Source: a virus
DNA: 64,000 bases
IMG/VR virus record: IMGVR_UViG_3300021448_000142
Strand: one strand, 5' to 3'
The position numbers and the translations under genes were made by a program. Positions 13,742-39,743 of this stretch are shown piece after piece. The notes beneath the pieces are model-generated. The model was not told the DNA's origin, did no database searches, and saw only the letters and a list, made by a program, of their open reading frames with translations. The stretch's first letter is position 1, and every line of letters begins with the position of its first letter.

Positions 13742-13742
13742 A

Positions 13743-17167: not shown

Positions 17168-19008
17168 TTAGAGAGCGAGAACACCGCAAAGACGAAATCG
17201 CAGATGAGTTACAGCCAATTGTAGAAGAAGCACAAAAACGTATAGAAGAATTGGGACTTAGCCCCCGGCCAGTCCGGTATTGGATTAATCACAACGATGA
17301 AGTAAATCAACTTGCCGCATATGGTGGATTTCAGAAGCGGTATCCACATTGGAGATGGGGGATGAAGTATGATAAGCAACGTAAGCAGGGCGAATATCAA
17401 GGTGGAAAAATATTCGAGATGGTTGTGAATAATGACCCTTGTCATGCGTATTTGCAAATGTCCAACGATGATGTAGACCAGAAGGCAGTAATTACACACG
17501 TTGAAGCACATTCAGATTTCTTTGCGAATAACAAATGGTTCCAAGATAGTCCACAAGCAGTTGAGATGTTATCTCGCCATGCAGAAAAAATCCGCTCGTA
17601 TATGGAAGACCCCGATATTGACCGGGAAGCAGTTGAAAAATGGATAGATAATATTCTCTGCCTGCAAGATACCATTGACCAGTATTCGGAGTATGTATTT
17701 CGGCAGAAAGTTGATGAAACGAGTAACAATGACAAGAGTACAGAAAGAACATTAGAAAATCTGAATATTGATGAAGAGATTGAAGATGCCGTCTTTGAAG
17801 ATGATTTCTTTGAAGAGCCACAAGAATTGGAGTATATTGTTGATACAACAATTGATGATATATTGGGATTTTTGATTAGTGAAGGAAAGCAGTATAATGA
17901 AAAGCGCGGAGAAGCAGTTGAATATGAGGAATGGCAAATTGACATTCTCGATATACTTCGTGAAGAAGCGTACTACTTCGCCCCACAGAAGATGACAAAG
18001 ATAATGAACGAAGGGTTTTCGTCTTATATCGAGAGCTTGATAATGACTGATGAGGTGTTTGCTGAAACAGAAGAAATTGTTGATTATGCAGACCAGCACT
18101 CAAAAGTCATTCAGTCGCGGGGCATTAATCCCTACCGGCTGGGAAAAGCACTGTGGGAACACGTTGAAAATACGGTCAATCGTCGAGAGGTTGTTGATAA
18201 GTTACTCCGTATCGACGGCATTACGCCTAACAACTTCCATCGAGAAATTGATTTTGAGTTTGTTTTTGAGGTGTTGTATGCGGGCAAAGACGATAGTGAT
18301 GTAATTGAACGGAATTATTCACTCACTCGCCCCCACAATAAGGGATTTATTCAGGATATATCGGTTAGTGAGTTGCAGAAAATGAACCGGTATATTGTTG
18401 AACAGGATAGGTACACGTCGTCAGAAGAAGCGTTAGTTGATGTAGACTTCCATAAGGGCTGGGAAGAAATAAAAGAAATCCGCGAAACGCATAATGACGT
18501 GATGTTTATTGACGAATTCTTAACGCAAGAATTTGTTGATGCTGAAGATTACTTTACATATGAATATCGGATTGCTGACGAAGAAAATCAAATTGCAAGT
18601 CGTGACGTAGAAGATGTAAAAAAGAAGCTCCTGCTTCAGTTAACAAACTTCGGAAAACCAAAAGTAGAAGTGGTGACGGGCAACTGGAATAATGCTGGTG
18701 AATTGTTGTTACTTCACCGGTATAATGGCGTTGTAATGGAATATAATAAAATACATTCCGTACTCGAACGGATGTATGAAATGTGGGGACGGCCAGTTAA
18801 CCTTGCAACCGTTGGCAAAGATATTGCAGATGAAGAACTCGATTATGCGTATACGGAAGGAGTCGAACCATTACCGGAAGAAATTCCAGTAATTATTACG
18901 TATGATGGCGAATCAATTGATGAAAAGCGGGTAAAAAATTCGCGCTTGAAAGGAGAATTGCAAGCTGAAGAGATAGATTATGATACAAAACCAGAATCTT
19001 GGCTGTGA
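17164..19008 (+). CDS. spoVR: SpoVR/YcgB family protein
   Basis: RYPHWRWG, IFEMVVNNDPC.AYL, HVEAHSDFF.NN, YF.PQ..TKIMNEG, NPY.LG motifs; ATG at 17164. Confidence 0.95.
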   Translation: MIREREHRKDEIADELQPIVEEAQKRIEELGLSPRPVRYWINHNDEVNQLAAYGGFQKRYPHWRWGMKYDKQRKQGEYQGGKIFEMVVNNDPCHAYLQMSNDDVDQKAVITHVEAHSDFFANNKWFQDSPQAVEMLSRHAEKIRSYMEDPDIDREAVEKWIDNILCLQDTIDQYSEYVFRQKVDETSNNDKSTERTLENLNIDEEIEDAVFEDDFFEEPQELEYIVDTTIDDILGFLISEGKQYNEKRGEAVEYEEWQIDILDILREEAYYFAPQKMTKIMNEGFSSYIESLIMTDEVFAETEEIVDYADQHSKVIQSRGINPYRLGKALWEHVENTVNRREVVDKLLRIDGITPNNFHREIDFEFVFEVLYAGKDDSDVIERNYSLTRPHNKGFIQDISVSELQKMNRYIVEQDRYTSSEEALVDVDFHKGWEEIKEIRETHNDVMFIDEFLTQEFVDAEDYFTYEYRIADEENQIASRDVEDVKKKLLLQLTNFGKPKVEVVTGNWNNAGELLLLHRYNGVVMEYNKIHSVLERMYEMWGRPVNLATVGKDIADEELDYAYTEGVEPLPEEIPVIITYDGESIDEKRVKNSRLKGELQAEEIDYDTKPESWL

Positions 19009-25499: not shown

Positions 25500-27560
25500 G
25501 ATTACAGTGAAAAAGTATGCAAATCTCTCCGGATATGTGGCCTGGAATGATTGATTGTGAGTGAATAAATGGGGGGTATGGGAATACAAAGGGAAGAAAG
25601 AGGGAACATATTATGGAGAAAACACGTTTGAAAGAAGAAAGATGTATACAAAGATAATGTGGAAACGTAGTATTTGGGGGGAGAAAGATGTACACAAGAC
25701 AGGATGATATGGTATGGATATAATAAAAAGAAATGTGTTCCATCGTGTACAATTGGAATGGTCTTTAGAAAGAACACTGGGGAGAAAAAGTGGTCATAGG
25801 TGCAATGGTCTTGAGGAGAGGGCAATGGTCTTTACAAATGTGTTCGGGGGGAATTTCTTTTACAAAAATATGTATGTGAAAATTGGTGGTGATTTAAGTA
25901 TAATATAACAAGACTTTCTTGCTCGAAAGAATAAAAATCATGATTGGAATTTCAATTGAAAGTTCGGCTTGAACTGTCGATTTAGTTTTTGGATTTATTA
26001 GGCTGGAAGAAAAACAATTGGGCTTTTCTTGGAAAAATTTCTGAAGATTTTCTAAGACTCTCAAGCATGAATTTCTGAAACAAATTTTCAATAGTATGCG
26101 GTATTTTTGAATTTTCTACAGATTTTTCAGACAATTTTGAACACTTGTTTTTCTTCTGAGCTAATTCTATTGAATGTTAATTTGACTGTTTTCGTCCAAT
26201 TGTTCAAACTCTCTCAAATCAACTCAAAGCTTCTCTGATATCATATACACATCTAAGAACCATTATTTGTGAGTCTGATATCACAGCATTATCACACAGG
26301 AATGTGGGCATACGTTCAATATGTAAGTTTATTTCACGATAATTTTACTGAAAAAGGGGCAAGGCTAGGGGATTTGGGCTTTTCCGTCGCTAATATTCCC
26401 AAAAATACCCCAATTATCACCCTTTCACATCAACTAACTAACATATCCCCCACTGAGTACCATAACAATAGGAATGTATAGAAAAACAATTATTTCCAAA
26501 ACAAACAAACAGTGATTATGACTATTTTTGTTCGATTGTCCAAAGAATCGCTCTTTTCCTGTATATCTGTACGTTAAGCGGTTTTAATAGCCTGTATCCC
26601 GGTCCAATACATGAACGGAATGTGATATGGAGGCATATCAGAAAATTGAGTATGGGGTTTGATTCACTATGAAAGAGACTAATTTAATCAGTATGTGTCT
26701 CTGGAAAAAGAATACTGCAAATCCCCATACAGCGCATGGATTCTAGGGCATAGTATCATACTAGTGAAATGGAAGTGCGGTTATTGGGAATCTCCCCGGT
26801 CGAAGTGTGGGGGTGACAGGCAAAAATCCGGATTGTAGAATCCCCATACGGCGGCGCTTTTGACAGAAAATATATGCAAATTACGAATTTCGTAAGCCAT
26901 CAGATTTCCGAGATACCCCCCACATTCCCATGCTAAATTTTTTGATATGGGGCAAACATAACCAGTATGCATAATAGACGCCTATTTGATTTATATCGCG
27001 TATATACGTCGCAGTAATTAAAAAAGGTATGGATATTAACAGACTTATTATTGTGAGTTATAGATTCGCGTGAAAATATTATTTGCCCCCTCCCAAAATA
27101 TGCATTGTGTGTATTATCGACTGTTAAAATATTACTGGTGCTATTGCCAGCCACACCACAAAGTATATATACAAAAAGTCACCCACCTCGCTTACCTTGG
27201 GTAAGTCCCCATTTATTTTAACGCCTGAAATTCAGAAAATAAGAACAAATGTAAAATGCGATTTTTCAGAATTTGCTATATTTGAAAACAAATGTCCACA
27301 AATTGCGCCCAAATATTTCGTATTGTTTTCCAACCCCCAATTAGTTTGTACGCGCAGTCACTTTTGAAAATTATACTAATATTTTTGATGTAAATCACCA
27401 TACTGCGTCGGTGTGGGGTTTGTGTTGCCGGTACCAAAAACCTTTAAGTGAATACCCCGAATTTCCGGTAATACAGATGATGTTTTGAATACTATTTTAT
27501 ACATAGGCGGCTTATATGTGCCTTTTACTGTATTTAAAGATGTGACAGAATTCTTCAGAT
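25500..27560. other. Long AT-rich non-coding region with short repeats (candidate genome terminus/origin region)
   Basis: No credible ORF. AATGGTCTT x3 (25757, 25804, 25824), GAAAGATGTA x2 (25637, 25683), CCCCATAC direct x2 (26723, 26842) and inverted (26650). Confidence 0.5.
27441..27450 (+). promoter_or_regulatory. TATA box
   Basis: A-rich BRE-like run (CCAAAAA) then CCTTTAAGTG. Confidence 0.5.
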
Positions 27561-27563
27561 AGA

Positions 27564-27571
27564 TTTAAGTG
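27564..27571 (+). promoter_or_regulatory. TATA box upstream of the candidate ncRNA
   Basis: TTTAAGTG, the same core as at 27443 and 29508. Confidence 0.5.
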
Positions 27572-27589
27572 ATAATCGCGCGTGTGTTA

Positions 27590-28560
27590 AAACATGGTCT
27601 AACACAGCAGGCCCACACACTCAAAATCCCCTTCCCCCGAGACGCACCTCGGGGGCCACGAAAAATGAACGGGGGCATAACATATCAGTAATCCCACAAG
27701 AGACTGCGAACGGGGCTAACAGCTCCAAGGTCTAGCGAGGGGGCAAAAGACTCTCAAAATCGCATGATGGGCGAGCGATGAAAGCTAGGAGCTAATGACC
27801 GCATGGCAACCTGTTAAAATGGGCACAAACTCAGGGATGATGGCAGCACAAATACTCAAAATCTGATAAGTCTCATACCTAAATGAAAGGGAACGGTCAA
27901 AGTACCTGAAATTTTAAATGTCAAACTATCGGAAACTATCAGACAGTAGATAAATAGCTAACGCTCTCGCTCGCCGGCTGTGAGTCTTTTGGGCATTTGA
28001 GTATCATGTTAAAATCATGATATGAAGCCCAAAACACAATGACCAGTCCCCTGCACACCAATGGGTTTTTAGGCGTGCCGACCGAGAAAATATAATTGTT
28101 TTGACGATGAAATTATGTCACTTGACTGTTGACTGACACAAGCAAAAACCGTTAAAATCCGAAAACGGGATAAGAACATGTCCGAAACGAGAGAATTAGG
28201 ATAACGGGAATTAAGCCCTAAAACCCTCAATATCGGAAAAAAGCGGGAGTATTAATCAACAGTCTGGAAATTTGGAGTGTAGCGTCAAAAACAATGACAA
28301 ATCGGGAATGACAGATTAGTTATCTGTCGTTTAGGTGAAATACTCAAGAGTACCGAGTTAATGTCATTGGGGCTACATGTAACCCAGCTTTAAAGACCAA
28401 AACGGGGACACATACCGTTTTGGGCTACTGGGGCGTAGGTACAAAAAGTGATAAGAAAAATCTGAAACCGCCAAAAACAGCAATAGCGGACCGGGAATCG
28501 GCTTAAACGGAAGATTTGAAAACATAATCCAAATTACATAATCGAGTCAAAACTCGGAAC
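27590..28560 (+). ncRNA. Candidate large structured non-coding RNA (about 1 kb), family unassigned
   Basis: No ORF of 60 aa or more on the + strand. More than 12 perfect helices of 6-9 bp, including long-range pairs, with A-rich linkers. Boundaries approximate. Confidence 0.6.
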
Positions 28561-28626
28561 ATATCGGGAAGCCTCAATAAATGCGAGCGAAAACTCAGAA
28601 AAACTAACCTGTCAAAATATTTTGTT

Positions 28627-28776
28627 ATGGATGACCATAACACCCAGACACGGGGATGGAAGAGCATGAGCGCAGAACCAGCACCGGTTAGCGATTGCAT
28701 TTTTGAGATTGAAAAATTGCGGAAAAAATATGGTGATGTGGTTTTTGAGGCATCAATCGAACAGATATCACAATAA
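28627..28776 (+). CDS. Small hypothetical protein (49 aa, read manually)
   Basis: Open frame with plausible composition. Confidence 0.4.
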   Translation: MDDHNTQTRGWKSMSAEPAPVSDCIFEIEKLRKKYGDVVFEASIEQISQ

Positions 28777-28843
28777 GACCAAGCAAACATCTAATTATTT
28801 TGGCAAGGGTCAAACCCCGAGCCATGCAGAGGTTATCAAAGCC

Positions 28844-28963
28844 ATGAGTCAAAAAAACAACACTGACCTAGCCGCAAAGTTGTCAACCAAAACCCCCTGT
28901 TTTAATTGTGGTAATTATACTGACAGTTACGGCAATTGCCCCAATTGCTCGGCAAGCAACTGA
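28844..28963 (+). CDS. Small zinc-finger protein
   Basis: CFNCG...CPNC; ATG at 28844. Confidence 0.5.
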   Translation: MSQKNNTDLAAKLSTKTPCFNCGNYTDSYGNCPNCSASN

Positions 28964-29051
28964 TTTAATTTAAGAATATATCTACTGAATTTTGGGGATT
29001 GTTAACTCAATCCCCCGACAATCCCCAAAGTCGTTAAAAATAGGTCGAACA

Positions 29052-29360
29052 ATGGCAGAACTAGAAATCCAAGGCAAAAGTATCGAGATGGAAACATATA
29101 CCCACGGCACTAAAGATTTTGTAGCTAAGATTGCATTTAATACCCCCGAGAGTGTCGACAGTGATAAATGTCGAGTTCTATATGATATCCATCTGGGCAA
29201 CGGCAAACGTTCAGAATTTACATTCGACAGAGTAGAGTCTGAAATTAACGAATATCTAAATGAAAACTGGGAAGATATAGAAATTGAGGAATTTTTGAGC
29301 ATTGAGATTTACGAAAAAAAGAAAATCAAAAGAAGACCATACGGCAATTACGAGTATTGA
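29052..29360 (+). CDS. Hypothetical cassette protein
   Basis: ATG follows the hairpin element; acidic. Confidence 0.65.
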   Translation: MAELEIQGKSIEMETYTHGTKDFVAKIAFNTPESVDSDKCRVLYDIHLGNGKRSEFTFDRVESEINEYLNENWEDIEIEEFLSIEIYEKKKIKRRPYGNYEY

Positions 29361-29506
29361 CGAATAATTGACAAAAACTTAATTTTGTAGTGGTTTTACC
29401 ACAAATTGCTACAAATGTCCAAAGATGGGCAAATATGGACAAATGTGATAAATCATGTTTGTCCATGATAAATCATGCAATCCAACCATCAATATCGTCA
29501 TCCCTC

Positions 29507-29522
29507 TTTTAAGTGGGGTATG
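29507..29522 (+). promoter_or_regulatory. TATA box with adjacent GGGGTATG motif
   Basis: TTTTAAGT followed immediately by GGGGTATG. Confidence 0.45.
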
Positions 29523-29715
29523 ATATTCGGCAAGTGGCAAATTCCCGACATATTTCCGGATATATCAAAAAATTAAGAGAAAAAATTTCTTAAAAAATCA
29601 AAAATTGGCCGGGGGATTGCGTAAAATATCCCGCATGGTTTAGGGGATATGGGTTAATTTTCTCAGCATTTAGCTGAGTGAGACTTAAAACTCATAAAAA
29701 TTGAAAGGTTAAACC

Positions 29716-29967
29716 ATGAGCATGACAGAAAAAGAAAACGAAAGCGAAAAACGCAAGGAATTGTCAGACAAACTTATTTATTCGGAGAAAAGAATTATTG
29801 TTAATTACGACTTGAATAAATTTAATAATTTTAAAGTCTTGTGTGGTGATGAATATGGAGCGTTTCATATTTCCGATTGGGAAATTGAAATTATCGAAAG
29901 GAGAACAAGTAAAAGTCTTTCGGAAATAAATTGGATTCCTGACGGATTTGTTGTAAAGTTCGATTGA
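29716..29967 (+). CDS. Hypothetical cassette protein
   Basis: ORF track; typical composition. Confidence 0.6.
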   Translation: MSMTEKENESEKRKELSDKLIYSEKRIIVNYDLNKFNNFKVLCGDEYGAFHISDWEIEIIERRTSKSLSEINWIPDGFVVKFD

Positions 29968-30013
29968 TTGAAAATATCAATATTTTGTAGGGGCCTTAGG
30001 CCCCGATGATAAA

Positions 30014-30283
30014 ATGACAAAATCAGAAATTGAATACCACATAATGATGGATAAATTAGAAGAACTACCAGAGGTAAAAAATGTTAAACAAGCTAGAAAT
30101 GAAATTGAGGTTTCAATCGAACCTAAAAACCCCGATTGGGGTATGCCCAACAATCTAGAAAATTTGTTGAAGAATGAAGATATTACCGACGAAAGGTGGG
30201 CAATTGTCGATTTTAGTGGGATGAATACCGATTTAGAAGAATCCAACAAATTCCGAATTACGCTTTATATCAAAACCTTTTAA
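30014..30283 (+). CDS. Hypothetical cassette protein
   Basis: ATG 9 nt after the hairpin. Confidence 0.65.
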   Translation: MTKSEIEYHIMMDKLEELPEVKNVKQARNEIEVSIEPKNPDWGMPNNLENLLKNEDITDERWAIVDFSGMNTDLEESNKFRITLYIKTF

Positions 30284-30360
30284 TTTCTTGTCGAAATTTT
30301 GGCCCCGGTAGGGGTATGTGTGACAAATGACATATACCCCTGCGGGGCTTGAGGCAAACC

Positions 30361-30515
30361 ATGAACATGAGAGATGAAAAGCGGCAAATGCCACACAACA
30401 ACCCCGAACAGCTAGATGTCTATTGTCAGACTGACGATACTGTGACGTTCACTGACAATAAAACGACAATCATCGCAGAAAGCAAGTTTGTCTTTAATCT
30501 CAGTGATGTGAGATA
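30361..30515 (+). CDS. Small hypothetical cassette protein (51 aa)
   Basis: ATG 12 nt after the long hairpin; read manually. Confidence 0.5.
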
Positions 30516-30701
30516 AAAAATGTCACTCAGAACACCATTAGGAAACAGTAGCATCGTGGACCAAAAACCTACTCTATATGATAAGTCTCGGTTTGGAACA
30601 AATGAATTTTATGGAAAATTAGCTGAAAGGTTAGACAATTCTAAACAATAGTATCCTCTACCTGATATTTTAGAACGGACATAGGTCCGTTCGAGTTGAC
30701 A

Positions 30702-31055
30702 ATGACAATGGACAAACAGTTTGAAGCGCGTCGAAACGCCTACAAAAATGTCAAAGAAGCTAATAGTTTGGCCGAAACAGAATTTTCAGAGTTGTTTCAT
30801 GTTGCTCGAACAACTAGTCCAGACAACATGAGAACCAACGGATACAGTAGTGTGTCAATCCCCGTATGCTTCAAAGAAAGCGGGGAATATGAAGTGGGCG
30901 AACCTGTCAAAACACGGTCAGGCGTACACTTTCATGTTAGAAATAGTAACAAATGGAATACGGTTATTTCACTTCCTGTCCGTCCCTTTATGGAAACGCA
31001 AGTGGCAAAAGACGAATTGCTTTGGAAAATTAGCGGTCCGTTTAGAATGAGTTAA
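30702..31055 (+). CDS. Hypothetical cassette protein
   Basis: ATG 9 nt after the hairpin. Confidence 0.65.
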   Translation: MTMDKQFEARRNAYKNVKEANSLAETEFSELFHVARTTSPDNMRTNGYSSVSIPVCFKESGEYEVGEPVKTRSGVHFHVRNSNKWNTVISLPVRPFMETQVAKDELLWKISGPFRMS

Positions 31056-31105
31056 ACCCAATTTTCTGATATTTTGTTATGGGGTTATCCCATAACACGC
31101 GTGAT

Positions 31106-31318
31106 ATGATGGACAATCAAACAGTCGAACGGAAAATAGTTGAAAAGTACGGTGAACATATCATATCAACAAAAGTTTATGAAGAAAATAATATAATTAG
31201 GCTGAAATTTGCGAATCAGAAAAAAGTCATGTGGCTTAAAAAAGAAATATGTCGGGAATTTGACCTAAAAGTACAGCAACACTTAAACTCAAAAATCTAT
31301 TGGTTTGAACCGGCATAA
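31106..31318 (+). CDS. Hypothetical cassette protein
   Basis: ATG 8 nt after the hairpin. Confidence 0.6.
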   Translation: MMDNQTVERKIVEKYGEHIISTKVYEENNIIRLKFANQKKVMWLKKEICREFDLKVQQHLNSKIYWFEPA

Positions 31319-31374
31319 AATAACAATATCAATATTTTGTCGTGGGATTGAACTCCCGCGATAGCAGGTGAAAA

Positions 31375-31713
31375 ATGTCAGAAATAGAAATAACACCGCA
31401 AGAAAGAGAACAGTTTTGTAAAATGGCTTACACATATGGATACGAATATTTCGGGGAGTCATATATCGAATATGACAGCATGGAAGAAATTCGTATCTTA
31501 TGTGATGAATCACGAAACAAAAAATCCAAAAAGGCAATAATCCGCAAAGTCGAAGACTACTTTGGCTTTGAAAGAGAAATCCATGACTGGGATAACTTTG
31601 GGATTTTTGGATTAATCGAGGATATAACCGTGTGTTATGAAGCTGGGGCAAGAAATGGTTTAGATGATGAAAATTATAATCCCGAACGGATTAGCCATAT
31701 GTGGGAATATTGA
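31375..31713 (+). CDS. Hypothetical cassette protein
   Basis: GGTGA SD-like motif; ATG 12 nt after the hairpin. Confidence 0.7.
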   Translation: MSEIEITPQEREQFCKMAYTYGYEYFGESYIEYDSMEEIRILCDESRNKKSKKAIIRKVEDYFGFEREIHDWDNFGIFGLIEDITVCYEAGARNGLDDENYNPERISHMWEY

Positions 31714-31788
31714 ATATTTCAACAACTTTTTCTTATGGGTTTCCCATAAGCGTTTAAACACTTCCCGTAAAAGTGTTTGTGTAATAAA

Positions 31789-31938
31789 ATGACACACTTC
31801 AGCGATAATAAATGTCCAAAATGCGGCAAAGAAAGCGTATGGGTTGAGGAATATACGGATGACGGAGAAATCCACGGGTTATCTGTTGGTTGTGATACGA
31901 TGAATTGCTATTTTTCTGAACAAATAATGTTCGATTAA
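31789..31938 (+). CDS. Small CPxCG-type zinc-finger protein (49 aa)
   Basis: CPKCG...CDTMNC; read manually. Confidence 0.6.
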   Translation: MTHFSDNKCPKCGKESVWVEEYTDDGEIHGLSVGCDTMNCYFSEQIMFD

Positions 31939-32016
31939 AATATTTAATATTTTCTCATACCTCGGGGTATGTGTCAATTCCCAAAGACATACACCAATAG
32001 GGGTATAGTGTCAACT

Positions 32017-32229
32017 ATGCAAATCAAAACGAGAGAACGGAAAAATCAGATAGAAGAAAAGATACGTGAAAATACTGATAGTATCGATAAATTTATCAAA
32101 CCTGGCGACTTGAGGAATCAAAACATTGATAGCTGGGATGATGTTAATGTCAATGAGCTAGAAAAAGAAATAATAGTTCATTCGCTCTTTTATTTCCAGC
32201 CAGGTGAAAACCTGGTGGTAATAACATGA
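32017..32229 (+). CDS. Hypothetical cassette protein
   Basis: In-frame ATG at 32017. Confidence 0.55.
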   Translation: MQIKTRERKNQIEEKIRENTDSIDKFIKPGDLRNQNIDSWDDVNVNELEKEIIVHSLFYFQPGENLVVIT

Positions 32230-32495
32230 AAGAAACAAAAAACATAACCGATAGTGAAAAAGATAAAGTACTTGAAAAGCTATCCAAACGGTACAATTTT
32301 GTCAGTATAGGAACAATAGAAAAGTATTCACCATACAGATATTATTTTGTGACACTTTATTTCGAGGATAAAAACTTCACAATAAGTAATCGTTTTAATG
32401 TTTCTATTGATGATAATCTCTATAATTTTACTATATCCAATATCGCAAAAGTATCAAATGAGACAAATGTAACAATCAGAATCACCAAACAGTAA
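32226..32495 (+). CDS. Hypothetical protein
   Basis: ATGA coupling with the upstream ORF. Confidence 0.6.
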   Translation: MKETKNITDSEKDKVLEKLSKRYNFVSIGTIEKYSPYRYYFVTLYFEDKNFTISNRFNVSIDDNLYNFTISNIAKVSNETNVTIRITKQ

Positions 32496-32728
32496 CCGAG
32501 AATATTCTCTTATTTTGTCATACATTTTGATAGGTTAGCCTATTCGTCAAATCGACGTAAAACCAAGAACCATGCTAGTCAAAGCAACAGTTAACGGTAT
32601 GTCAGTCGAAAAGAACGTAAACAATTTGTCGGAATTTGTAGATTATGTCAAAGGTACTATGGGATTTGAACTTTCAGATATTCAAAACATCCAGCGAATA
32701 GACTGATAAAACTTCTTACTTTTTTGTT

Positions 32729-32902
32729 ATGGAAAACCATAGCATTCCTGATACCAGCGCAAGGGTAAATGTACACAATTTTACTTTTTGCCCGCATTGT
32801 GGCGAAAAAGTAAGAAAAGAAGAAATACAAATATCCAAATACAAATCGAATCAAGAAGTTATTTGCGATAATTGTAATCTTGTTTTGCTGAATAAGCGGT
32901 AA
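32729..32902 (+). CDS. Small CPxCG-type zinc-finger protein (57 aa)
   Basis: FCPHCG...CDNC; the only in-frame ATG lies inside the hairpin left arm. Confidence 0.55.
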   Translation: MENHSIPDTSARVNVHNFTFCPHCGEKVRKEEIQISKYKSNQEVICDNCNLVLLNKR

Positions 32903-32969
32903 ACATCCGTTTAGAAGAATTTCATTTATTTATTATTTTGGTATGGTCTTACCATACCAGTGAGACAAA

Positions 32970-33293
32970 ATGAAAGCTAAAAATGTTCAAACTCGTACAG
33001 ACTATTATCAGTATATTGATGAAAAGGTGGATTACATTGAACACGAATTGCGAAGGGGAATGTCTGCGAATAAACATCGAATCGTTCAAGAACATATAGA
33101 TGGTGATAGAATTATCATAAATTTTAGAAATTGCATTCATGTTCTAGAACTATCAGAAAATGAACCGGAAGAACGGAAGAATTATATTACTGACAATTCT
33201 AACTATAGAGAAGTCATTCGCGCTATGGCATATTCAGTATTCCGGCGAGATATTTATGATGAGATAGCCGACAGAGATATTGATTTAGAATAG
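32970..33293 (+). CDS. Hypothetical cassette protein
   Basis: ATG 10 nt after a perfect 9-bp hairpin. Confidence 0.7.
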   Translation: MKAKNVQTRTDYYQYIDEKVDYIEHELRRGMSANKHRIVQEHIDGDRIIINFRNCIHVLELSENEPEERKNYITDNSNYREVIRAMAYSVFRRDIYDEIADRDIDLE

Positions 33294-33341
33294 TCAGATA
33301 AACAATACGATTTTTGCTAGGGTTGTCCCTAGCTGATAATT

Positions 33342-33467
33342 TTGCTAAAACAGAAACCTAAAGCAAAAGATAAGTGCGACCACTGTAATAGTCACATATC
33401 AGACACATATAACGGTCTGTTTGTCTGTCAAATGTGTTACTATCATTATGGGTATGATGAAATCTAA
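33342..33467 (+). CDS. Small zinc-finger protein (TTG start)
   Basis: CDHC...CQMC; TTG 8 nt after the hairpin. Confidence 0.5.
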   Translation: MLKQKPKAKDKCDHCNSHISDTYNGLFVCQMCYYHYGYDEI

Positions 33468-34060
33468 ATTATCTTAGCGGCATTACATATAACTGATGTG
33501 GTTTAAAATCGCTTTGAGATAGTAGCACAATTTTGATACGGGGTAGCCCATATCAGTGATATAACATTAACTGTAAAATGTAAATACTGCAACTAAAATA
33601 TCTCCCCTAAATTTCCCCGAGTAAATAACTCGGGTGATAACAAATTTCTAACAATTACACAAAACTGGGTAATTGTCAAAATACACACATAATGCGAAAG
33701 ACGGGGGTCCGCTTCTAAAACTATACTTAAGACTTTTCATAGTTTCGAGTGAAGACAGTTACTTCAAAATAACCAAATACTTATAAGCAGGTATCAAAAA
33801 CAAACCAGATGCCCGATAAAAAATGCACTTAAACCTTTCGCTATTTTACCCCTTTATCCCACATAAATGCACCGATAGTTACCACACATATGCCTACCGA
33901 TGGCCAGTAGTAATAAACAACCTATACAGTTATATGTCAAAATGTAAATCGGCAAAATTAGCGAAAAATTTATGAGAACCACGGGGATTGAACCTATAAT
34001 CCCGCATGATTTGAACGGGCGGGGTGACTTTTGGAAAAGCAACAGCTTTTCCGTGATACA

Positions 34061-34267
34061 ATGAACATTGAGAAACTTGAAGAAAAAGATATTGAACAGT
34101 TAGTAATGAAAATGGAATCTCACCGAATACTCATTCTTTTCACAACTGTTCATCTTCTCCATGAATTTATGCTGGATGAAATGGAATTTCGGGAAAAGAA
34201 TGAAGTAAAGATAGAATCAACCAGCCAACTCAATAGAATGAGAGAAATTCTCAAAGAAAACCGATAA
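34061..34267 (+). CDS. Hypothetical cassette protein
   Basis: ATG 8 nt after a perfect 8-bp hairpin. Confidence 0.6.
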   Translation: MNIEKLEEKDIEQLVMKMESHRILILFTTVHLLHEFMLDEMEFREKNEVKIESTSQLNRMREILKENR

Positions 34268-34312
34268 ACTCAATATACAATTTTTCCCGCACAGTGTGCG
34301 GGTGTTCAAACA

Positions 34313-34610
34313 ATGACACAAAAAGAAGAATTCATTGAAGCAATTGAGAACGACGAGTATTGTGTTTGGCAACTCTCCGAAAACATTTACCTTGAAACTG
34401 ATAATCAATTTGATGGGACTTTTCATTCCGTGGCTGTGCGTGAGAGACGAATCACTAACAGAACAGGAAATTGACGATATAATGATGAAAAATAATGTGA
34501 ATGAAGTGTTTAGTTGGTACAAACTTGAAAAATCAAACCAAGAACACCTTTGGGATATTTGTGGTGTTGAAAGCGAGCATGAACAAATAGACCATTCTGT
34601 TTGGGAATAA
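34313..34610 (+). pseudogene. Frameshifted cassette ORF
   Basis: MTQKEEF...HSVAVRE continues as DESLTEQEIDD...HSVWE in another frame; a single-base indel near 34445 would join them. Confidence 0.5.
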
Positions 34611-34808
34611 AATAGTTCTCTCAATTTTTCTATGCTACTACGCATAGTGAACAAATTCCAACATGAACTTACATAAATATATTTTGAAATAAAGCACTCA
34701 CAAGCAAATGGGGGCCGGGGGTCCGAAATATGATAACCGATGGGGGGTACTGGGGATTGAATTGCAAATCTCACATTATTTTGTAGGGCATAGCCCTGCT
34801 GATTCACA

Positions 34809-35057
34809 ATGAACGAAATAGAAAACCTAAGCAATTTGAAAAGAGCAGAACGAATTACACTCGAACTGAAAGACAATTCGGTATTTTGTCATATTCTGTG
34901 TGCAAACGAAAAGAGGGCAATTCTGAATCATGAATACAGCAAAGAAATATATCACGTTCAGGATTCACAGGAAAACGGAATATTTATTGCTTATCTCGAA
35001 GACATAGAAAACAATTCAGCAACGTTTCTGGAAGAAAACATCACTTTGAGATATTAA
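34809..35057 (+). CDS. Hypothetical cassette protein
   Basis: ATG 9 nt after the hairpin. Confidence 0.65.
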   Translation: MNEIENLSNLKRAERITLELKDNSVFCHILCANEKRAILNHEYSKEIYHVQDSQENGIFIAYLEDIENNSATFLEENITLRY

Positions 35058-35102
35058 TTCAACTCACATATTTTGTGGTGGATTTCCGCCACAGATAACA
35101 CG

Positions 35103-35324
35103 ATGCCAAGAAACCAAAATCAAAAAGAAGTTGTCTTTGAATCACTTGAAGGAACTAAACGAATCTATGCTATCAGTGTTGAATGGAAAGATAATCACTT
35201 GTCCATTAGACATTATCCAAATAAAAACGAAAGAAAATTTCTGCAAGAAGACGAAATTATCCTCTGCAATATAGAAACAAAAGAAATCCCACTTTCAAAA
35301 GTGTTTGAAGTGAACAGTATTTAA
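35103..35324 (+). CDS. Hypothetical cassette protein
   Basis: ATG 9 nt after the hairpin. Confidence 0.65.
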   Translation: MPRNQNQKEVVFESLEGTKRIYAISVEWKDNHLSIRHYPNKNERKFLQEDEIILCNIETKEIPLSKVFEVNSI

Positions 35325-35381
35325 TCTGAACAATTTTTGTGGGGGAATTTTTGTGGGGGAATTATCCCCTACAGTTTCAAC

Positions 35382-35801
35382 ATGGAACCTGAATATCACA
35401 ACCGTATCGGTACTGTTTCAATCGGTGAAAAGTATGAATCAGTGACAATTGAACAGGGAACAATTAGTCTTGGGGACATTCTTGCGTGCGAAGGCCCCGA
35501 TAACAGATATCATCGTGAAAGGGTGACAAGCTCTATTTATGTTGCTCCAGTTGAAGCAATTTACCGTTTCACTGGTAAAATGTCAACCCGAGAAGCACAG
35601 TTAGAATTTGGTATTCCGGCACCAATTGGCCGGATTGATATGGAAAATATTCTTGCAATTTCTGGAAAAGAGATTCATTACTATCAAGACGGACGAAGAT
35701 GTGATATGAAGTCCATTAAACGGTTTATCGGTTCTGATTATGATAGATATATGCACATAGAATGGGTGCCCTGTGGAAATTTCCGTGTGAGCGGCGAATA
35801 A
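35382..35801 (+). CDS. Hypothetical cassette protein
   Basis: ATG 8 nt after the hairpin. Confidence 0.7.
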   Translation: MEPEYHNRIGTVSIGEKYESVTIEQGTISLGDILACEGPDNRYHRERVTSSIYVAPVEAIYRFTGKMSTREAQLEFGIPAPIGRIDMENILAISGKEIHYYQDGRRCDMKSIKRFIGSDYDRYMHIEWVPCGNFRVSGE

Positions 35802-35902
35802 GCAGACCACTCCTAATTATTTTTCGTTGCCATTGTGCAACGGTGACTGCTAATGAAAAACACAACTAACACGTTCGACTTTAACGAGGTAGAAGTATAA
35901 CA

Positions 35903-36091
35903 ATGTGTGGTTTTTACTATGGGAATTGTGAAATCTGCAAAGCCACAATTCGCAAAGAAGAACACGAGTCGTACCACCGCTGTTTTGCGTGTTTTGAGTG
36001 GTATGATGAACCCGGCGGAGCGGAGCTAGACCCGGAAGAACGCCCCCCATCAAGCATCCCGAACCACCCAAGCGATTACGATGGTGAGTAA
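35903..36091 (+). CDS. Small zinc-finger protein
   Basis: CEIC...CFAC. Confidence 0.6.
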   Translation: MCGFYYGNCEICKATIRKEEHESYHRCFACFEWYDEPGGAELDPEERPPSSIPNHPSDYDGE

Positions 36092-36094
36092 AAA

Positions 36095-36460
36095 ATGAGA
36101 CACGAAATCAACACTGAAACGAACAGCCCCATTGAAAGCAGTATCGACCGAACGTGGGACCACTATGCTTATGTCGATGATGGTGAATATGCGGTTGTAG
36201 TTGGCGTTTCGTGGGCAGAAATTGATAAAAGCGACGAGCATTGGGATGGGCATAGAGATACAGACACACCAACGGTTAAATACAAAGTTTATGTCTGTGA
36301 GGCTGGCCTTGTCGATGAATTGCGAACTGCTGTGAATACCCACAGAACCGAAAATCCTAACAATTTGGCCGACGTGGCCGTGGAAATCATGGAAATGCTT
36401 ATCGAAGAAGACGACCGAACGCCCATCCAAGCCGCGAAAGATTACTGGGACGACAAATAA
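36095..36460 (+). CDS. Hypothetical acidic protein
   Basis: GGTGA SD-like motif before the ATG; typical composition. Confidence 0.7.
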   Translation: MRHEINTETNSPIESSIDRTWDHYAYVDDGEYAVVVGVSWAEIDKSDEHWDGHRDTDTPTVKYKVYVCEAGLVDELRTAVNTHRTENPNNLADVAVEIMEMLIEEDDRTPIQAAKDYWDDK

Positions 36461-36537
36461 TTAAAGCGCATTGGTTAAGAATAGAGTCTCAAATTCGCGT
36501 ATTTTCTGTGGGGAGTGCGCCCCCACAGTGGTTCAAA

Positions 36538-36918
36538 ATGTCAAACGAAAAACAAGCCATAGATGAAGAACAGATTGCAAGTGGAATTGTGTTTGATATT
36601 GAACACTATAGACAGGGTGAACCGTTCGACCGTGTTGCTATAGGGATTCATGAATGGGAAAATCGAATAACCAAATATATCTACGATTTGGACAAAGAAA
36701 GTGCAGAAACAGTCTTGCGTATTCATGCCAAATATTATCTTAATAGAGAAATCGCGGAAAAACGCCGGAACTTGGAAAAGTATCATGTTGAAGATGGTTG
36801 TGTTCATCACGCTGGAACAGAACACGAATTAGAACAGTTTATTGAAGATAACTTTTATGTAGACCCTGTAATATCAATCACCGACGAATTTGAAAGCGTA
36901 GTTGATGAATTGAACTAA
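36538..36918 (+). CDS. Hypothetical cassette protein
   Basis: ATG 9 nt after a perfect 8-bp hairpin. Confidence 0.7.
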   Translation: MSNEKQAIDEEQIASGIVFDIEHYRQGEPFDRVAIGIHEWENRITKYIYDLDKESAETVLRIHAKYYLNREIAEKRRNLEKYHVEDGCVHHAGTEHELEQFIEDNFYVDPVISITDEFESVVDELN

Positions 36919-36970
36919 AGTTTAATTCTTTTATATTTTGGTGGGGTATGCCCCCACCTGTGATTCAAAA

Positions 36971-37249
36971 ATGACACTTGATGTACCCAATTGGCAACAC
37001 AAATCAGGATACAGCATAAAAGCAGACGGTCAACAAATTATATATGAACATACTGAAATGCCGTGGAAAGCGGTGATTGAGGGTGTTCTTGCCGAAAACG
37101 AAGAACCACCATTTGATTTTCAGTATTATGTTGCAATATTCGATAAATCTACAAACTTCCCCACGAAAACAATTGAAGCACATGAATTCTTTGCCGAAAA
37201 AGAAAATGCTATAGAAGACTTGGAATCGAAAATGAAGAAACACAGTTAG
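36971..37249 (+). CDS. Hypothetical cassette protein
   Basis: ATG 12 nt after the hairpin. Confidence 0.65.
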   Translation: MTLDVPNWQHKSGYSIKADGQQIIYEHTEMPWKAVIEGVLAENEEPPFDFQYYVAIFDKSTNFPTKTIEAHEFFAEKENAIEDLESKMKKHS

Positions 37250-37304
37250 AATCTCTTATTCTTTTCTTGGGGAATTATCTCCCAAGCACTCAAGGTAGAA
37301 TATT

Positions 37305-37495
37305 ATGGTGAAAATAGAAATTGACACTGAACGCAAATCAAGTAGTATAGACCAAAAAAAATGTCAGAATTATCAACAAATCAACTGCTTGAATTATATG
37401 ATTTCTTAAAAACCAATTCTAACGCAGAATTGGTAAGTTCTGAATTGATGTTCCGAGCAAGAACAAAAGAAAAATATCGTATGAAGAACAAATAA
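37305..37495 (+). pseudogene. Cassette ORF possibly split at an A8 run
   Basis: ATG 37305 frame and ATG 37361 frame would fuse with one extra A in the A8 run at 37354-37361. Confidence 0.3.
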
Positions 37496-37573
37496 ACGAA
37501 ATTGAGCGCAGGCTCTAGGTAACACTTATAAATATTTTGGATAAGCTAGGTATGCTTATCCGGTGAACACAAT

Positions 37574-37777
37574 ATGTCACGAATTGGAGAATTCCGGTAC
37601 ACCGGCAATGGAAAGCTTCTGAACAACGACGAGACATATACCATCTTCGACATTGGAAATTCTTATGAAGCATATCCTGAAGGTGGAACGGAACCCATTA
37701 AGATTAATCGGGGAACCTTTGTGTCTCTCCGGCGTGGAAATCTCGAACAGACTGAAGGCGCAACTCCGATGGGATAA
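37574..37777 (+). CDS. Hypothetical cassette protein
   Basis: GGTGA motif; ATG 12 nt after the hairpin. Confidence 0.65.
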   Translation: MSRIGEFRYTGNGKLLNNDETYTIFDIGNSYEAYPEGGTEPIKINRGTFVSLRRGNLEQTEGATPMG

Positions 37778-38270
37778 TAATCTAATCCAATATAGTCTAA
37801 CCCGAAATAGTCTACCCAGCCAAATACCCATTTTTGCTGTGGGGTTTCCCACACGCAAACTACTATGAAAATTGAGATAAAAAATGGCAAAATGATTATA
37901 ATCACCGCGTATAAAGAAAAATTCATTCCACGCGCAGAACAACTTTAGGAAAATATTTAACTCCGAAATAATAGAGGTAAAACAATGCCAATCGTCTCTA
38001 AGAAAACATTAGAACATAAGAAAACGGAAACAAAGCTAAAAGATGGTAGATGAACCGCACAATTGCGGTTCTGGAACCTGTGTAATTTGCGAAATACAAG
38101 CGGCTGTTCGTGAATACTGTGAAAATTGTACTGAAAATGAAAAGTGTTCTGCGTGTCAAGAAGCTGAAAAATAGGACGGCTAGTTGCAGGCTTGCAGGAC
38201 TAGGGGATTGCTTTCTTAACCCCGCATCATTTTGGAGGGGAAGATAATTTCTCTCCAGTCAAAATGACAA

Positions 38271-38564
38271 ATGACAATAGATAATTCAGCAATCACAAAA
38301 ATCTACAAAGTTGCACAAGCATTTGAAAAGGATTTCAACCCGGATAACTTCGATATTATCGGATTGTATCATGAGTATGACGACCACGAACATTCAGATT
38401 TGCCCCAATATAGAGTTTGTGTTGTAGTTGAAGACATAGGGAATTTTTCAACGTTTGTCTTCCCCATTGCCGAATTCGGACGAAAGCAGGGATTATTCTT
38501 ATTTGATACTGTGAGCAATTGGGAAGATGAGACGGTGAAACTCCGATTCGGCTACAAAGCATAG
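38271..38564 (+). CDS. Hypothetical cassette protein
   Basis: ATG 13 nt after the hairpin. Confidence 0.65.
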   Translation: MTIDNSAITKIYKVAQAFEKDFNPDNFDIIGLYHEYDDHEHSDLPQYRVCVVVEDIGNFSTFVFPIAEFGRKQGLFLFDTVSNWEDETVKLRFGYKA

Positions 38565-38657
38565 GAACTTATACTTCTTGTACTATTTGTCACCTATATC
38601 TTGACAAAACGCACACAAACTATAACATTTTGTGGGGGTTTGCCCCCGCCAATCAGC

Positions 38658-38996
38658 ATGAAAGACCACTATGCATACTTGGTAACTGGTCGAAACGACT
38701 TAGAAGAAAATCTTGTGTATCAATCTGCGGGTGTTGAACGGATTATTCCAAAATTGTGCGAAGGCGACAAACTGCGTTTGCAACGTGAAGGCAAAAGCTA
38801 TCCGCAAATTTTTGTTCAAGTATTAGAAAATCATGGTGAATTTGTTGTTGTAGAAGACGAAAACAATAACCATTATAAACTGTGGGGAAGATGGTACCCG
38901 GAGAATTCAAGAGCGACGGCGCAGGCATGGTTGCGAACAGATACCAACACTTCAGCAGGGCGGGTAACTAGTTTGACGATTCTGAACCTCACATAG
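38658..38996 (+). CDS. Hypothetical cassette protein
   Basis: ATG 8 nt after the hairpin. Confidence 0.65.
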   Translation: MKDHYAYLVTGRNDLEENLVYQSAGVERIIPKLCEGDKLRLQREGKSYPQIFVQVLENHGEFVVVEDENNNHYKLWGRWYPENSRATAQAWLRTDTNTSAGRVTSLTILNLT

Positions 38997-39048
38997 GTAT
39001 CTTTTTATTTCCCCATGCACAAACATGGGGTGAATCGAGACTTAAATC

Positions 39049-39415: not shown

Positions 39416-39499
39416 CCGAGTACAATTCTGTCTTCCCATAGTTAAAGTTCTTGTCGGAACAATTTTTTTCTGTGGGATTGTCCACAGGTGACTTCCAAA

Positions 39500-39679: not shown

Positions 39680-39743
39680 CCAAAGAAAATTTTATATAGT
39701 GCCCCCGCTAAACTATTTTCGTGTCAATTAATGACACAGGAGT

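What the first reader, a model, noticed from the sequence alone, without database searches (positions are those of the whole stretch)
27590..28560. Candidate ~1 kb structured non-coding RNA at the head of the cassette array
Seen: no ORF of 60 aa or more on the + strand, a TTTAAGTG TATA at 27564, and visibly more G/C than the 26-27.5 kb flank. Local helices: CCCCCGAG/CTCGGGGG 27634-27655, TATCATG/CATGATA 28002-28022, TTTTGGGC/GCCCAAAA 27987-28034, GACAGAT/ATCTGTC 28310-28328, CCAAAACGG/CCGTTTTGG 28397-28423. Long-range helices: AGCTC 27721/GAGCT 27789, CTAGC 27732/GCTAG 27784, AAAAGACTC 27745/GAGTCTTTT 27982, ATACTCAAA 27852/TTTGAGTAT 27996, TCTGATA 27862/TATCAGA 27937, TGACCG 27796/CGGTCA 27894, TTTTGACG 28099/CGTCAAAA 28283 enclosing GACTGTTGA 28124/TCAACAGTC 28256, and CAATGACA 28292/TGTCATTG 28362. 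Some pairs cross (pseudoknots) or are mutually exclusive (alternative conformers), and linkers are A-rich with several GAAA motifs. Established: phages carry large ornate ncRNAs of several hundred nt (GOLLD and ROOL classes). Inference: this could be an archaeal-virus large ncRNA of a new class. I could not recognise RNase P, SRP, tmRNA or group I/II intron signatures.
Basis: partly seen in the sequence, partly recalled or inferred. Interest (0 to 1): 0.88.

Follow-up and report, generated by a model that had tools for sequence, protein, structure and literature searches.

The report
New large structured RNA in halophilic-archaeal viruses
The 1 kb gene-free stretch is one member of a previously undescribed family of roughly 0.9-1.1 kb folded non-coding RNAs that low-GC viruses from salt habitats carry at the head of their block of small genes; its function is unknown.

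Summary
Window 27,590-28,620 (+) has no ORF, no codon periodicity and no Rfam match. From the single sequence the case is weak. The fold z is -2.9, and the excess of complementary words comes mostly from A-run/T-run words.

The decisive evidence is comparative. I found nine homologous stretches in related uncultured viruses from hypersaline metagenomes. All sit in the same place: after a TTTAAGTG-type TATA box and before the first hairpin-headed small gene.
- Two homologs at 70% identity give a consensus fold energy of -178.6 against -82.9+-6.3 for column shuffles (z -15), with 45 compensatory pairs against 17+-4.
- Six homologs give z -12.6 for the 3' domain.
- The + strand scores better than the - strand in all three family-level tests.
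- Models built without the window hit it once each: the 5' domain at 27,621-27,741 (E 1e-10) and a 3' block at 28,502-28,547 (E 2e-7).
- Eight of ten members, folded independently, form the same long interrupted closing stem from different sequences.

The window's copy is a divergent member, and its interior structure is unresolved. There is no expression data and no known function.

The parts
27560..27571 (+). Promoter-like element: TAGA + TTTAAGTG TATA box
   Evidence: TTTAAGTG is at 27,564. The same motif sits at the same distance upstream of the homologous element in G001, G003, L128, L139 and L056; L133 has TATAAGTA. The promoter role is inferred, not measured.
27582..27592 (+). Conserved GTGTGT/GTATGTG box and inferred transcription start, about 20-27 nt after the TATA box
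   Evidence: This box is aligned in six members. The start site is inferred from archaeal promoter geometry (my own knowledge). No 5'-end data exist.
27588..28623 (+). The candidate RNA, about 1,030 nt
   Evidence: No ORF and no 3-periodicity. Bounded by family-conserved 5' and 3' elements. The + strand composition is A 36%, T 20%; in the stretch from just after the TATA box to the 3' block it holds one T5+ run against seven A5+ runs.
27627..27675 (+). 5' domain: outer helix 27,627-27,631 / 27,671-27,675 enclosing hairpin 27,634-27,641 / 27,648-27,655
   Evidence: Covariance model R1, built from G001 and L128 only, hits window 27,621-27,741 at 47 bits, E 1e-10. Pair counts on the model alignment: 95.7% of cells paired, and 9 pairs with changes on both sides against 4.3+-1.4 (0 of 500 shuffles reach this). 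The hairpin stem reads CCCCCGAG here, CCCCATGG in G001 and CCCCAGAG/CTTTGGGG in L133, which includes a G.U pair that exists only on the + strand.
27686..27705 (+). Conserved single-stranded motif CAGTAATCCCACAAGAGACT
   Evidence: Near-identical to CAGTAACCCACTAAGAGACT in G001 and L128.
28071..28118 (+). 5' strands of the long closing stem of the 3' domain: 28,071-74, 28,078-81, 28,082-85, 28,098-105, 28,113-118
   Evidence: These pair with 28,571-74, 28,564-67, 28,554-57, 28,546-53 and 28,536-41 in the window's own MFE fold. The same architecture, with 3' arms at the same offsets from the conserved block, appears in the independent folds of G001, L128, L133, L139, L056, L137 and L060, each from different sequences.
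28157..28171 (+). Small hairpin ATCC/GGAT in an A-rich motif shared with G003 and L135
   Evidence: The stem is ATCC/GGAT here, ACCC/GGGA in G003 and ACCG/CGGT in L135.
28269..28276 (+). AATTTGGA, the partner of TCCAAATT (28,528-28,535) inside the conserved 3' block
   Evidence: Subgroup A has AATTGTAG/CTACAATT at the same offset (+10). That amounts to four changes on both sides relative to the window. By eye, G003 has AACTTTGG/CCAAAGTT.
28306..28332 (+). 11-bp hairpin just upstream of the motif AATACTCAAGAGTACC
   Evidence: Pairing probability is 0.99. In subgroup A a hairpin of different sequence sits directly before the matching motif GAATAGTTCTAAAGCCC. The positional homology is inferred from alignment by eye.
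28502..28547 (+). Conserved 3' block; core GAAAACATAAT starts at 28,518
   Evidence: Sequence-only model R3, built from nine other members without the window, has its only significant hit in the 64 kb window here: 27.5 bits, E 1.8e-7.
28536..28574 (+). 3' strands of the closing stem
   Evidence: See the 5' strands above. With arm offsets taken from the family, exact colinear complements for three arms occur in 0 of 5,000 dinucleotide shuffles of the upstream region.
28620..28623 (+). TTTT run: candidate 3' end, directly before the first T-tract+hairpin unit (28,620-28,642) of the small-gene array
   Evidence: In 7 of 10 members, this window included, a T4-T6 run lies 82-108 nt after the block. 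In several of them a hairpin that covaries between members comes just before it: ACGTA/TACGT, GGG/CCC, AGG/CCT. L137 has a comparable hairpin (AACCCAT/ATGGGTT) followed only by a shorter T-rich stretch, below the T4 cutoff. In the window the preceding hairpin is weak. Termination here is inferred.

Best explanation
Window ~27,588-28,623 (+) encodes a member of a previously undescribed family of ~0.9-1.1 kb structured non-coding RNAs. The family is carried by a clade of low-GC (33-41%) uncultured tailed viruses from hypersaline habitats. Their PolB is 52-65% identical to this virus's PolB and about 39% identical to those of haloarchaeal viruses HCTV-5 and HVTV-1.

Shown:
- The element is conserved in position.
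- It has a conserved 5' hairpin domain.
- It has a 3' domain of ~450-500 nt closed by a long interrupted stem whose arms differ in sequence between members but stay complementary.
- It has a conserved single-stranded 3' block.
- It has no coding signal.

Inferred:
- Host RNA polymerase transcribes it rightward from the conserved TTTAAGTG TATA box.
- The transcript ends at a hairpin plus T-run just before the first small gene. It is therefore a discrete RNA made at the head of the block of small, presumably early, genes.

Most likely mode of action (inference, about 35-40%): it acts in trans as a compact folded scaffold or decoy that binds a host or viral protein during takeover, as is suspected for the large ornate phage RNAs, rather than acting by base-pairing to a target.

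The confidence figure given applies to the claim that this is a conserved structured RNA element of a new family; the trans-acting mode of action is less certain, as stated.
For: Homologs and synteny:
- G003 and G001 have an ORF-free gap ~24-25 kb after PolB, as in the window, with TTTAAGTG and then ~1 kb before the first hairpin-headed gene.
- Further members are L128, L133, L135, L139, L056, L137 and L060.

Structure:
- G001/L128 pair: alifold energy -178.6 against column shuffles -82.9+-6.3 (z -15.3). Compensatory pairs 45 against 17.3+-4.0, maximum 25 in 100 shuffles.
- Long-range helices in that pair carry 3-4 changes on both sides.
- Six-member 3' domain: z -12.6, with 29 covarying pairs against 2.3+-1.9.
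- Window + G003 + L135: z -5.8, with 68 covarying pairs against 46.6+-7.
- 5' domain pair counts: 0 of 500 shuffles reach the observed value.
- The same closing stem appears in 8 of 10 independent single-sequence folds.

Membership of the window:
- R1 E 1e-10.
- R3 E 1.8e-7.
- Three closing-stem arms colinear and exact in 0 of 5,000 shuffles.

Strand:
- The + strand z beats the - strand z in all three family-level tests: -15.3 against -10.1, -12.6 against -7.1, and -5.8 against -4.4.
- In the window's subgroup, covariation exceeds shuffles only on +.
- T5+ runs are nearly absent inside the element, while A5+ runs are common.

Non-coding:
-.
- G001/L128 mismatches by position mod 3 are 90/91/99, and only 1 of 12 indels is a multiple of 3.

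No known family.
Against: - There is no transcript evidence. No RNA run was listed for this stretch, and the one read-laying run showed only DNA contigs.
- The window's copy is the most divergent member (42-47% identity). Its global pairwise alignments give weak structure scores: z 0 to -3.4 on +, and -4.8 on - against G001.
- Model R2, for an interior sub-domain of subgroup A, does not hit the window, G003 or L135. A sequence-only alignment of all ten members yields only one consensus helix. The interior fold of this copy is therefore unresolved.
- The single-sequence statistics are modest.
- Closing-duplex energies do not discriminate between strands.
- Column-shuffle nulls ignore phylogeny, and with 2-6 sequences the covariation statistics are not R-scape grade.
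- The trans-acting scaffold/decoy function is pure inference.
Confidence: 0.67

Rival explanations
1. It is not a free RNA. It is a ~1 kb structured 5' leader of the early polycistronic transcript, acting in cis. It could protect the message from 5' exonucleases, time or gate expression of the downstream small genes, or hold a transcription or translation control switch.
For: It lies between the only conserved promoter-like motif and the first small genes on the same strand in every member. In the window the hairpin before the T-run is weak, and the T-run is only TTTT followed by GTT, so read-through is plausible. The T-tract+hairpin unit that follows it is the same as those that precede the other genes in the array.
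Against: Most members carry a covarying hairpin plus a T4-T6 run at the 3' end, which looks like a terminator. The first downstream gene differs between members: the conserved 117-121 aa gene of G001, G003 and L128 is absent from the window. The RNA is therefore not tied to one regulated gene. A 1 kb leader with a closed multi-helix domain has no clear archaeal precedent (my own knowledge).
Confidence: 0.22
2. It is a DNA-level element, such as a replication origin, packaging signal or genome-end structure. The inverted repeats would act in double- or single-stranded DNA, not in RNA.
For: It lies in a 3 kb ORF-free gap where the cumulative GC skew flattens. The left part of that gap has conserved sequence and AT-rich low-complexity DNA in relatives. 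Both strands fold better than shuffles.
Against: Pairing is maintained by compensatory change while the sequence drifts, in nested helices up to 480 nt apart. Protein-binding DNA sites conserve sequence, and cruciforms do not span hundreds of bases with internal domains. The + strand scores better in all three family-level tests. There are G.U pairs that exist only on the + strand. There are no iterons or direct repeats. A conserved TATA box lies at a fixed distance upstream. T-runs are avoided on one strand only.
Confidence: 0.06
3. It is a self-splicing intron, a ribozyme-bearing mobile element, or the RNA of a retroelement.
For: The size and the multi-domain fold are in the range of group I and II introns. 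Inteins in the PolB genes of relatives show that selfish elements do circulate in this clade.
Against: No intron, ribozyme or other Rfam model matches, even at E<=10 in the window or E<=1 in five homologs. No flanking gene is interrupted. No reverse transcriptase or homing endonuclease ORF lies inside. The position is the same in all members, which does not fit a mobile element.
Confidence: 0.03
4. It is a decayed gene or neutral spacer, and its apparent structure is chance.
For: Single-sequence evidence is weak once A/T-run words are removed. The local fold z-scores are ordinary.
Against: The stretch is conserved in nine other contigs that differ strongly in their flanking genes. Covariation is far above column shuffles. 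No periodicity or frame-preserving indels are present.
Confidence: 0.02

Closest known systems
GOLLD and ROOL RNAs (large ornate non-coding RNAs often found in phages and prophages)
   Same: Several hundred to about a thousand nucleotides long. Multi-domain folds supported by covariation. Carried by viruses of prokaryotes. No coding capacity. Function not understood. Recent cryo-EM work reports that they form RNA-only multimers (10.1101/2024.12.08.627333, seen in the listing).
   Different: No match to their Rfam models. Found in archaeal-type viruses from hypersaline habitats. Not seen next to tRNA genes: no tRNA is present in the window. It has a fixed place after a TATA promoter at the head of a small-gene array. 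Multimer formation is untested.
phi29 pRNA (packaging RNA of a PolB-encoding phage)
   Same: A structured virus-encoded RNA transcribed from an early promoter near one edge of the genome map, acting as a folded RNA rather than by base-pairing (my own knowledge).
   Different: About six times larger. No Rfam match. The virus here has RFC- and helicase-type replication genes. No link to packaging genes is seen nearby.
Long structured 5' leaders and exonuclease-resistant RNAs (xrRNA) of viruses
   Same: Position between a promoter and the first genes, and strong conserved structure.
   Different: Those elements are tens to a few hundred nucleotides long and are known from eukaryotic RNA viruses (PMC6299227, listing). 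This element is about 1 kb, with a terminator-like end in most members.
OLE RNA (ornate, large, extremophilic; bacterial)
   Same: A large ornate RNA of extremophiles that works as a ribonucleoprotein scaffold (PMC3413148, listing).
   Different: OLE is bacterial and chromosomal, with dedicated partner-protein genes next to it. There is no Rfam match here and no conserved adjacent protein gene across members.

Membership tests
New family defined here (hypersaline low-GC virus ~1 kb RNA) | 5' hairpin domain: outer helix plus inner hairpin with a GAAACAC-like loop, followed by the CAGTAAYCCCAC..AAGAGACT motif | tested here: met
   R1, built without the window, hits 27,621-27,741 at E 1e-10. Covariation beats 500 of 500 shuffles.
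New family defined here (hypersaline low-GC virus ~1 kb RNA) | Conserved 3' block TTGAAAACAYAAY...TTAC | tested here: met
   R3, built from nine other members, has a single significant hit at 28,502-28,547, E 1.8e-7.
New family defined here (hypersaline low-GC virus ~1 kb RNA) | Long interrupted stem closing the 3' domain, with 3' arms at about +10, +19, +28 and +36 to +53 nt from the block | tested here: met
   Present in the window's own MFE fold and in 7 other members. Exact colinear arms occur in 0 of 5,000 shuffles.
New family defined here (hypersaline low-GC virus ~1 kb RNA) | Context: TTTAAGTG-type TATA box upstream; T-tract+hairpin small genes downstream on the same strand; ~21-25 kb after PolB | tested here: met
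New family defined here (hypersaline low-GC virus ~1 kb RNA) | Shared interior architecture of the 3' domain | tested here: inconclusive
   R2, an interior sub-domain model for subgroup A, does not hit the window, G003 or L135. The window shares a different interior motif with G003 and L135. Whole-length alignments are too diverged to settle this.
New family defined here (hypersaline low-GC virus ~1 kb RNA) | Expressed as a discrete RNA | not testable with these tools
GOLLD / ROOL / HEARO / OLE and other large Rfam RNAs | Match to the family covariance model | tested here: not met
   No hit at gathering score in 64 kb. None at E<=10 within 25.5-30 kb overlapping the element. None at E<=1 within the elements of five homologs.
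Group I / group II introns, RNase P, SRP, tmRNA | Covariance model match; for introns, an interrupted host gene | tested here: not met
   No Rfam hit. No tmRNA or tRNA. No split gene flanks the element.
Replication origin / iteron region | Repeated binding sites and an AT-rich unwinding element inside the stretch | tested here: not met
   No tandem or dispersed direct repeats apart from three CTCAAAATC copies. GC is 43.5%, higher than the flanks.

The most novel reading that the evidence does not exclude
The RNA is an archaeal-virus counterpart of the self-assembling ornate RNAs, forming an RNA-only multimer or cage, or it is a new ribozyme class. In either case it would do biochemical work of its own during host takeover in salt-saturated cytoplasm. 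The high intracellular salt would favour very large RNA folds.
Probability: 0.12. Interest if true: 0.95.

Novelty: new variant of a known kind. Interest (0 to 1): 0.82.

Why it matters
Large, intricately folded non-coding RNAs of unknown function are rare, and almost all known examples come from bacteria and their phages. As far as my Rfam and literature searches show, this would be the first such class tied to viruses of halophilic archaea. The hosts are possibly Nanohaloarchaea, judging from the low GC content; that is inference only, following 10.1101/029934.

The element sits at a fixed, promoter-proximal place at the head of a block of small genes, which points to a role at the start of infection. 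Ten diverged members are already in hand, so the family can be modelled, searched for more widely, synthesised and probed. High-salt cytoplasm is an interesting setting for RNA folding. The finding also gives a concrete annotation for a conserved 1 kb 'empty' region in a whole clade of ~95-107 kb viral genomes.

Tried and rejected
- Alternative genetic codes do not open the region.
- blastn against phage and plasmid collections: no match.
- Exact 5'-hairpin pattern in IMG/VR: nothing.
- Single-protein searches of IMG/VR with the neighbouring gene and with PolB: nothing.
- The neighbouring 261-aa gene has only three distant relatives, and their contigs lack the gap.
- blastn of the element against five related IMG/VR records: chance-level matches only.
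- No whole genome is held for this window, and metagenome loci could not be searched as whole records.
- DNA runs hold the same virus. One run has a ~97% variant, but only over 27,424-27,643.
- No RNA run was listed.
- The 3'-block pattern gave 5 off-target hits in IMG/VR, 75 in metagenomes and 38 in species genomes. These match only the short core. They include two contigs of a Nanoarchaeota MAG that match at 16% local GC and have no 5' domain.
- RNAalifold on a plain MAFFT alignment of all ten 3' domains finds a single helix. Sequence alignment is not adequate at 43% column identity.
- The alifold structure of window + G003 + L135 is noisy and I do not rely on its individual helices.
- Model R2 does not reach the window's subgroup.
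- R1 and R3 find nothing in the cultured haloviruses HVTV-1, HCTV-1 and HCTV-5.
- L136 and L140 are 50% GC relatives that carry the downstream gene family.
- Duplex energies do not tell the strands apart.

Full report
**Observation.** The stretch is as described.
- All fourteen complementary word pairs exist.
- There is no + strand ORF of 60 aa or more, and no single stop-codon reassignment opens the region.
- There is no three-base periodicity anywhere in 25.4-28.7 kb, unlike the flanking genes.
- TTTAAGTG lies at 27,564, with a second copy at 27,443.
- GC is 43.5%, with 36% A and 20% T on the + strand.

Taken alone, however, the sequence makes a weak case.
- The whole-region fold z is -2.9 on + and -4.0 on -.
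- 200-nt windows are no more structured than spots inside the downstream gene array.
- The striking excess of reverse-complement words (k=7, 58 against 23.5+-6.2) shrinks to 23 against 14.2+-4.9 once words with AAA or TTT are left out. Fourteen of 200 shuffles reach that value. A handful of T-runs pair promiscuously with many A-runs.

**Context.**
- The window is 64 kb of a 95,068-bp contig from halite metagenomes, at 40% GC.
- It encodes PolB, an AAA+ ATPase of clamp-loader (RFC/Rad17) type, a helicase, and PrkA and SpoVR proteins.
- Its PolB is 39% identical to those of haloarchaeal tailed viruses HCTV-5 and HVTV-1.
- Genes run rightward to 25.5 kb. A 3 kb ORF-free gap follows. From 28.6 kb comes a long run of small genes, most preceded by a T-tract and a tight hairpin.
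- Rfam finds nothing at gathering score, and nothing in the element even at E<=10. No tRNA is present.

**Finding relatives.**
- Direct DNA searches failed.
- A protein search with PolB revealed a clade of uncultured relatives at 52-65% identity, several on long contigs.
- An alignment-based scan then put five of them in reach.
- The complete 106-kb genome G003 and the 56-kb contig G001 both have an ORF-free gap 24-25 kb downstream of PolB, as in the window. In both, a TTTAAGTG motif is followed by about 1 kb without ORFs and then by the first hairpin-headed small gene.
- Aligning the three stretches exposed a conserved 5' part and a conserved 3' block.
- The 3' block, used as a pattern, recovered L128, L056 and L060 from metagenomes.
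- A small gene family that follows the element in G001, G003 and L128 led to L133, L135, L137 and L139.
- That makes ten members, all from low-GC (33-41%) contigs. The two metagenome sources that are named in the records fit a salt habitat: a brine sample (L060) and NCBI WGS set LFFM01 (L128), which I take from memory to be the Salar Grande halite metagenome.

**Structure.** G001 and L128 are 70% identical and align reliably.
- Their consensus fold energy is -178.6 kcal/mol against -82.9+-6.3 for column-shuffled alignments (z -15.3). It holds 45 pairs with changes on both sides against 17.3+-4.0, with a maximum of 25 in 100 shuffles. The reverse strand gives z -10.1.
- The covarying helices include long-range ones: 7 bp with 4 double changes spanning 417 columns, and 6 bp with 3 double changes spanning 364 columns.
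- For the 3' domain of six members the consensus energy is -20.4 against -2.1+-1.5 (z -12.6; reverse strand -7.1). It has 29 covarying pairs against 2.3+-1.9.
- For the window with its two nearest relatives (G003, L135) z is -5.8 on + and -4.4 on -. Covarying pairs exceed every shuffle only on the + strand: 68 against 46.6+-7.0, maximum 60.
- When each sequence is folded alone, eight of ten give the same series of long-range helices. Their 3' arms lie at about +10, +19, +28 and +40 to +46 nt from the conserved block, built from unrelated sequences. At +28, for example: GTTTTGAC/GTCAAAAC in the window, GTAAGTC/GACTTAC in G001, GTAGGTT/AACCTGC in L139 and CTAAGAT/ATCTTAG in L056.

**Is the window's copy a member?** Two models built without it say yes.
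- The covariance model of the 5' domain (G001 + L128) hits 27,621-27,741 at 47 bits, E 1e-10.
- On the resulting alignment 95.7% of cells pair. Nine pairs have double changes against 4.3+-1.4 (0 of 500 shuffles reach this), and slid controls fall to zero.
- A sequence model of the 3' block from nine other members has its only significant hit in the whole window at 28,502-28,547, E 1.8e-7.
- With arm offsets taken from the family, exact colinear complements for three closing-stem arms are found in the window and in 0 of 5,000 dinucleotide shuffles of its upstream region.

The window is nevertheless the most divergent member.
- Global pairwise alignments at 42-47% identity give weak or no structure signal.
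- A model of an interior sub-domain of subgroup A misses it.
- A plain alignment of all ten members supports only one consensus helix.
- Its interior fold is therefore open.

**Strand, ends, coding.**
- The + strand is favoured by the z-scores above, and by G.U pairs that would be A.C on the other strand.
- It is also favoured by the conserved TATA box and GTATGTG-like box upstream.
- T5+ runs are nearly absent inside the element (0-1 per member) while A5+ runs number 1-7. Seven of ten members have a T4-T6 run 82-108 nt after the block, and in several a covarying hairpin precedes it.
- Mismatches between G001 and L128 fall evenly on the three codon positions (90/91/99). Only 1 of 12 indels is a multiple of three.
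- No expression data could be obtained.

**What it does.** Nothing here measures function.
- The fixed place directly after a conserved promoter at the head of the small-gene block, the terminator-like end, and the lack of any one conserved neighbouring gene together make a discrete trans-acting folded RNA the best reading. It would be made early and would work as a protein-binding scaffold or decoy.
- A cis-acting structured leader of the early transcript is the main rival.
- A DNA-level role is unlikely, given nested compensatory helices hundreds of bases apart.
- The AT-rich, partly conserved left half of the gap is a better candidate for an origin or packaging region.

**Comparison with what is known.**
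- The nearest analogues are GOLLD and ROOL, the large ornate RNAs often carried by phages. They are analogues in kind only: no Rfam model matches the window or five homologs.
- Literature searches found no description of a large structured RNA in haloarchaeal or nanohaloarchaeal viruses.
- The halite virome paper assigns low-GC halite viruses to Nanohaloarchaea (10.1101/029934). That is a plausible but untested host for this clade.
- The cultured relatives HVTV-1, HCTV-1 and HCTV-5 show no match to either model.
- Species-representative prokaryote genomes gave only core-pattern chance hits.

**Earlier notes of this scan.** All are on this same window; the scan holds no note of this element on other DNA. 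The layout note (gap, RNA, hairpin-headed genes) and the array note agree with what I see in relatives.

Noticed in passing
window 25,860-25,945; G003 (L035) ~75,950-76,040; G001 (L040) ~51,400-51,480: The left edge of the 3 kb gap carries a sequence-conserved element (…TTGCTCGAA…ATCATGATT). In all three viruses a T-rich stretch and then an AT-rich low-complexity stretch follow it. This is a better candidate for an origin or packaging site than the RNA region.
   Followed up: partly
window 29,360-29,660 and 30,220-30,520: These are the strongest local folding signals of the neighbourhood (z -4.85 and -5.39, 100 shuffles each). They consist of long perfect hairpins in intergenic spots of the small-gene array.
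   Followed up: partly
window 28,620-41,050 (+); G001 54,900-56,300; L128: Most small genes are preceded by a T-tract and a tight GC-rich hairpin. The unit before the first gene covaries between G001 and L128 (CCCAAAA/TTTTGGG against CCTGATT/AATCAGG), so the pairing rather than the sequence is conserved.
   Followed up: partly
window 27,443-27,450: A second TTTAAGTG lies 121 nt upstream of the one at 27,564, possibly a tandem promoter. L056 likewise has a TATAAGTG 366 nt upstream of its TTTAAGTG.
   Followed up: no
window 27,620, 27,753, 27,855: Three copies of CTCAAAATC fall within 240 nt, out of 6 in the whole window against 1.3 expected. Their role is unknown.
   Followed up: no
relatives P0011, P0012, P0024, P0027, P0031, P0032 (PolB): Several PolB genes of the clade are 1,250-1,310 aa long and carry intein or LAGLIDADG domains. 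The window's PolB (875 aa) has none.
   Followed up: no
window 29,052-29,360; G001 55,927-56,230: A ~100-aa protein (MAELEIQGKS… / MATLEIQGES…) is conserved just downstream of the RNA in the window and in G001. A different 117-121 aa gene (…CGKRAY.YE) follows the RNA in G001, G003 and L128 but is absent from the window.
   Followed up: partly
window 11,630-19,008: Two PrkA genes and a SpoVR gene give strong Pfam matches, with a 424-aa ORF (15,893-17,167) between them that I did not scan. This is an unusual stress-kinase operon for a virus.
   Followed up: no
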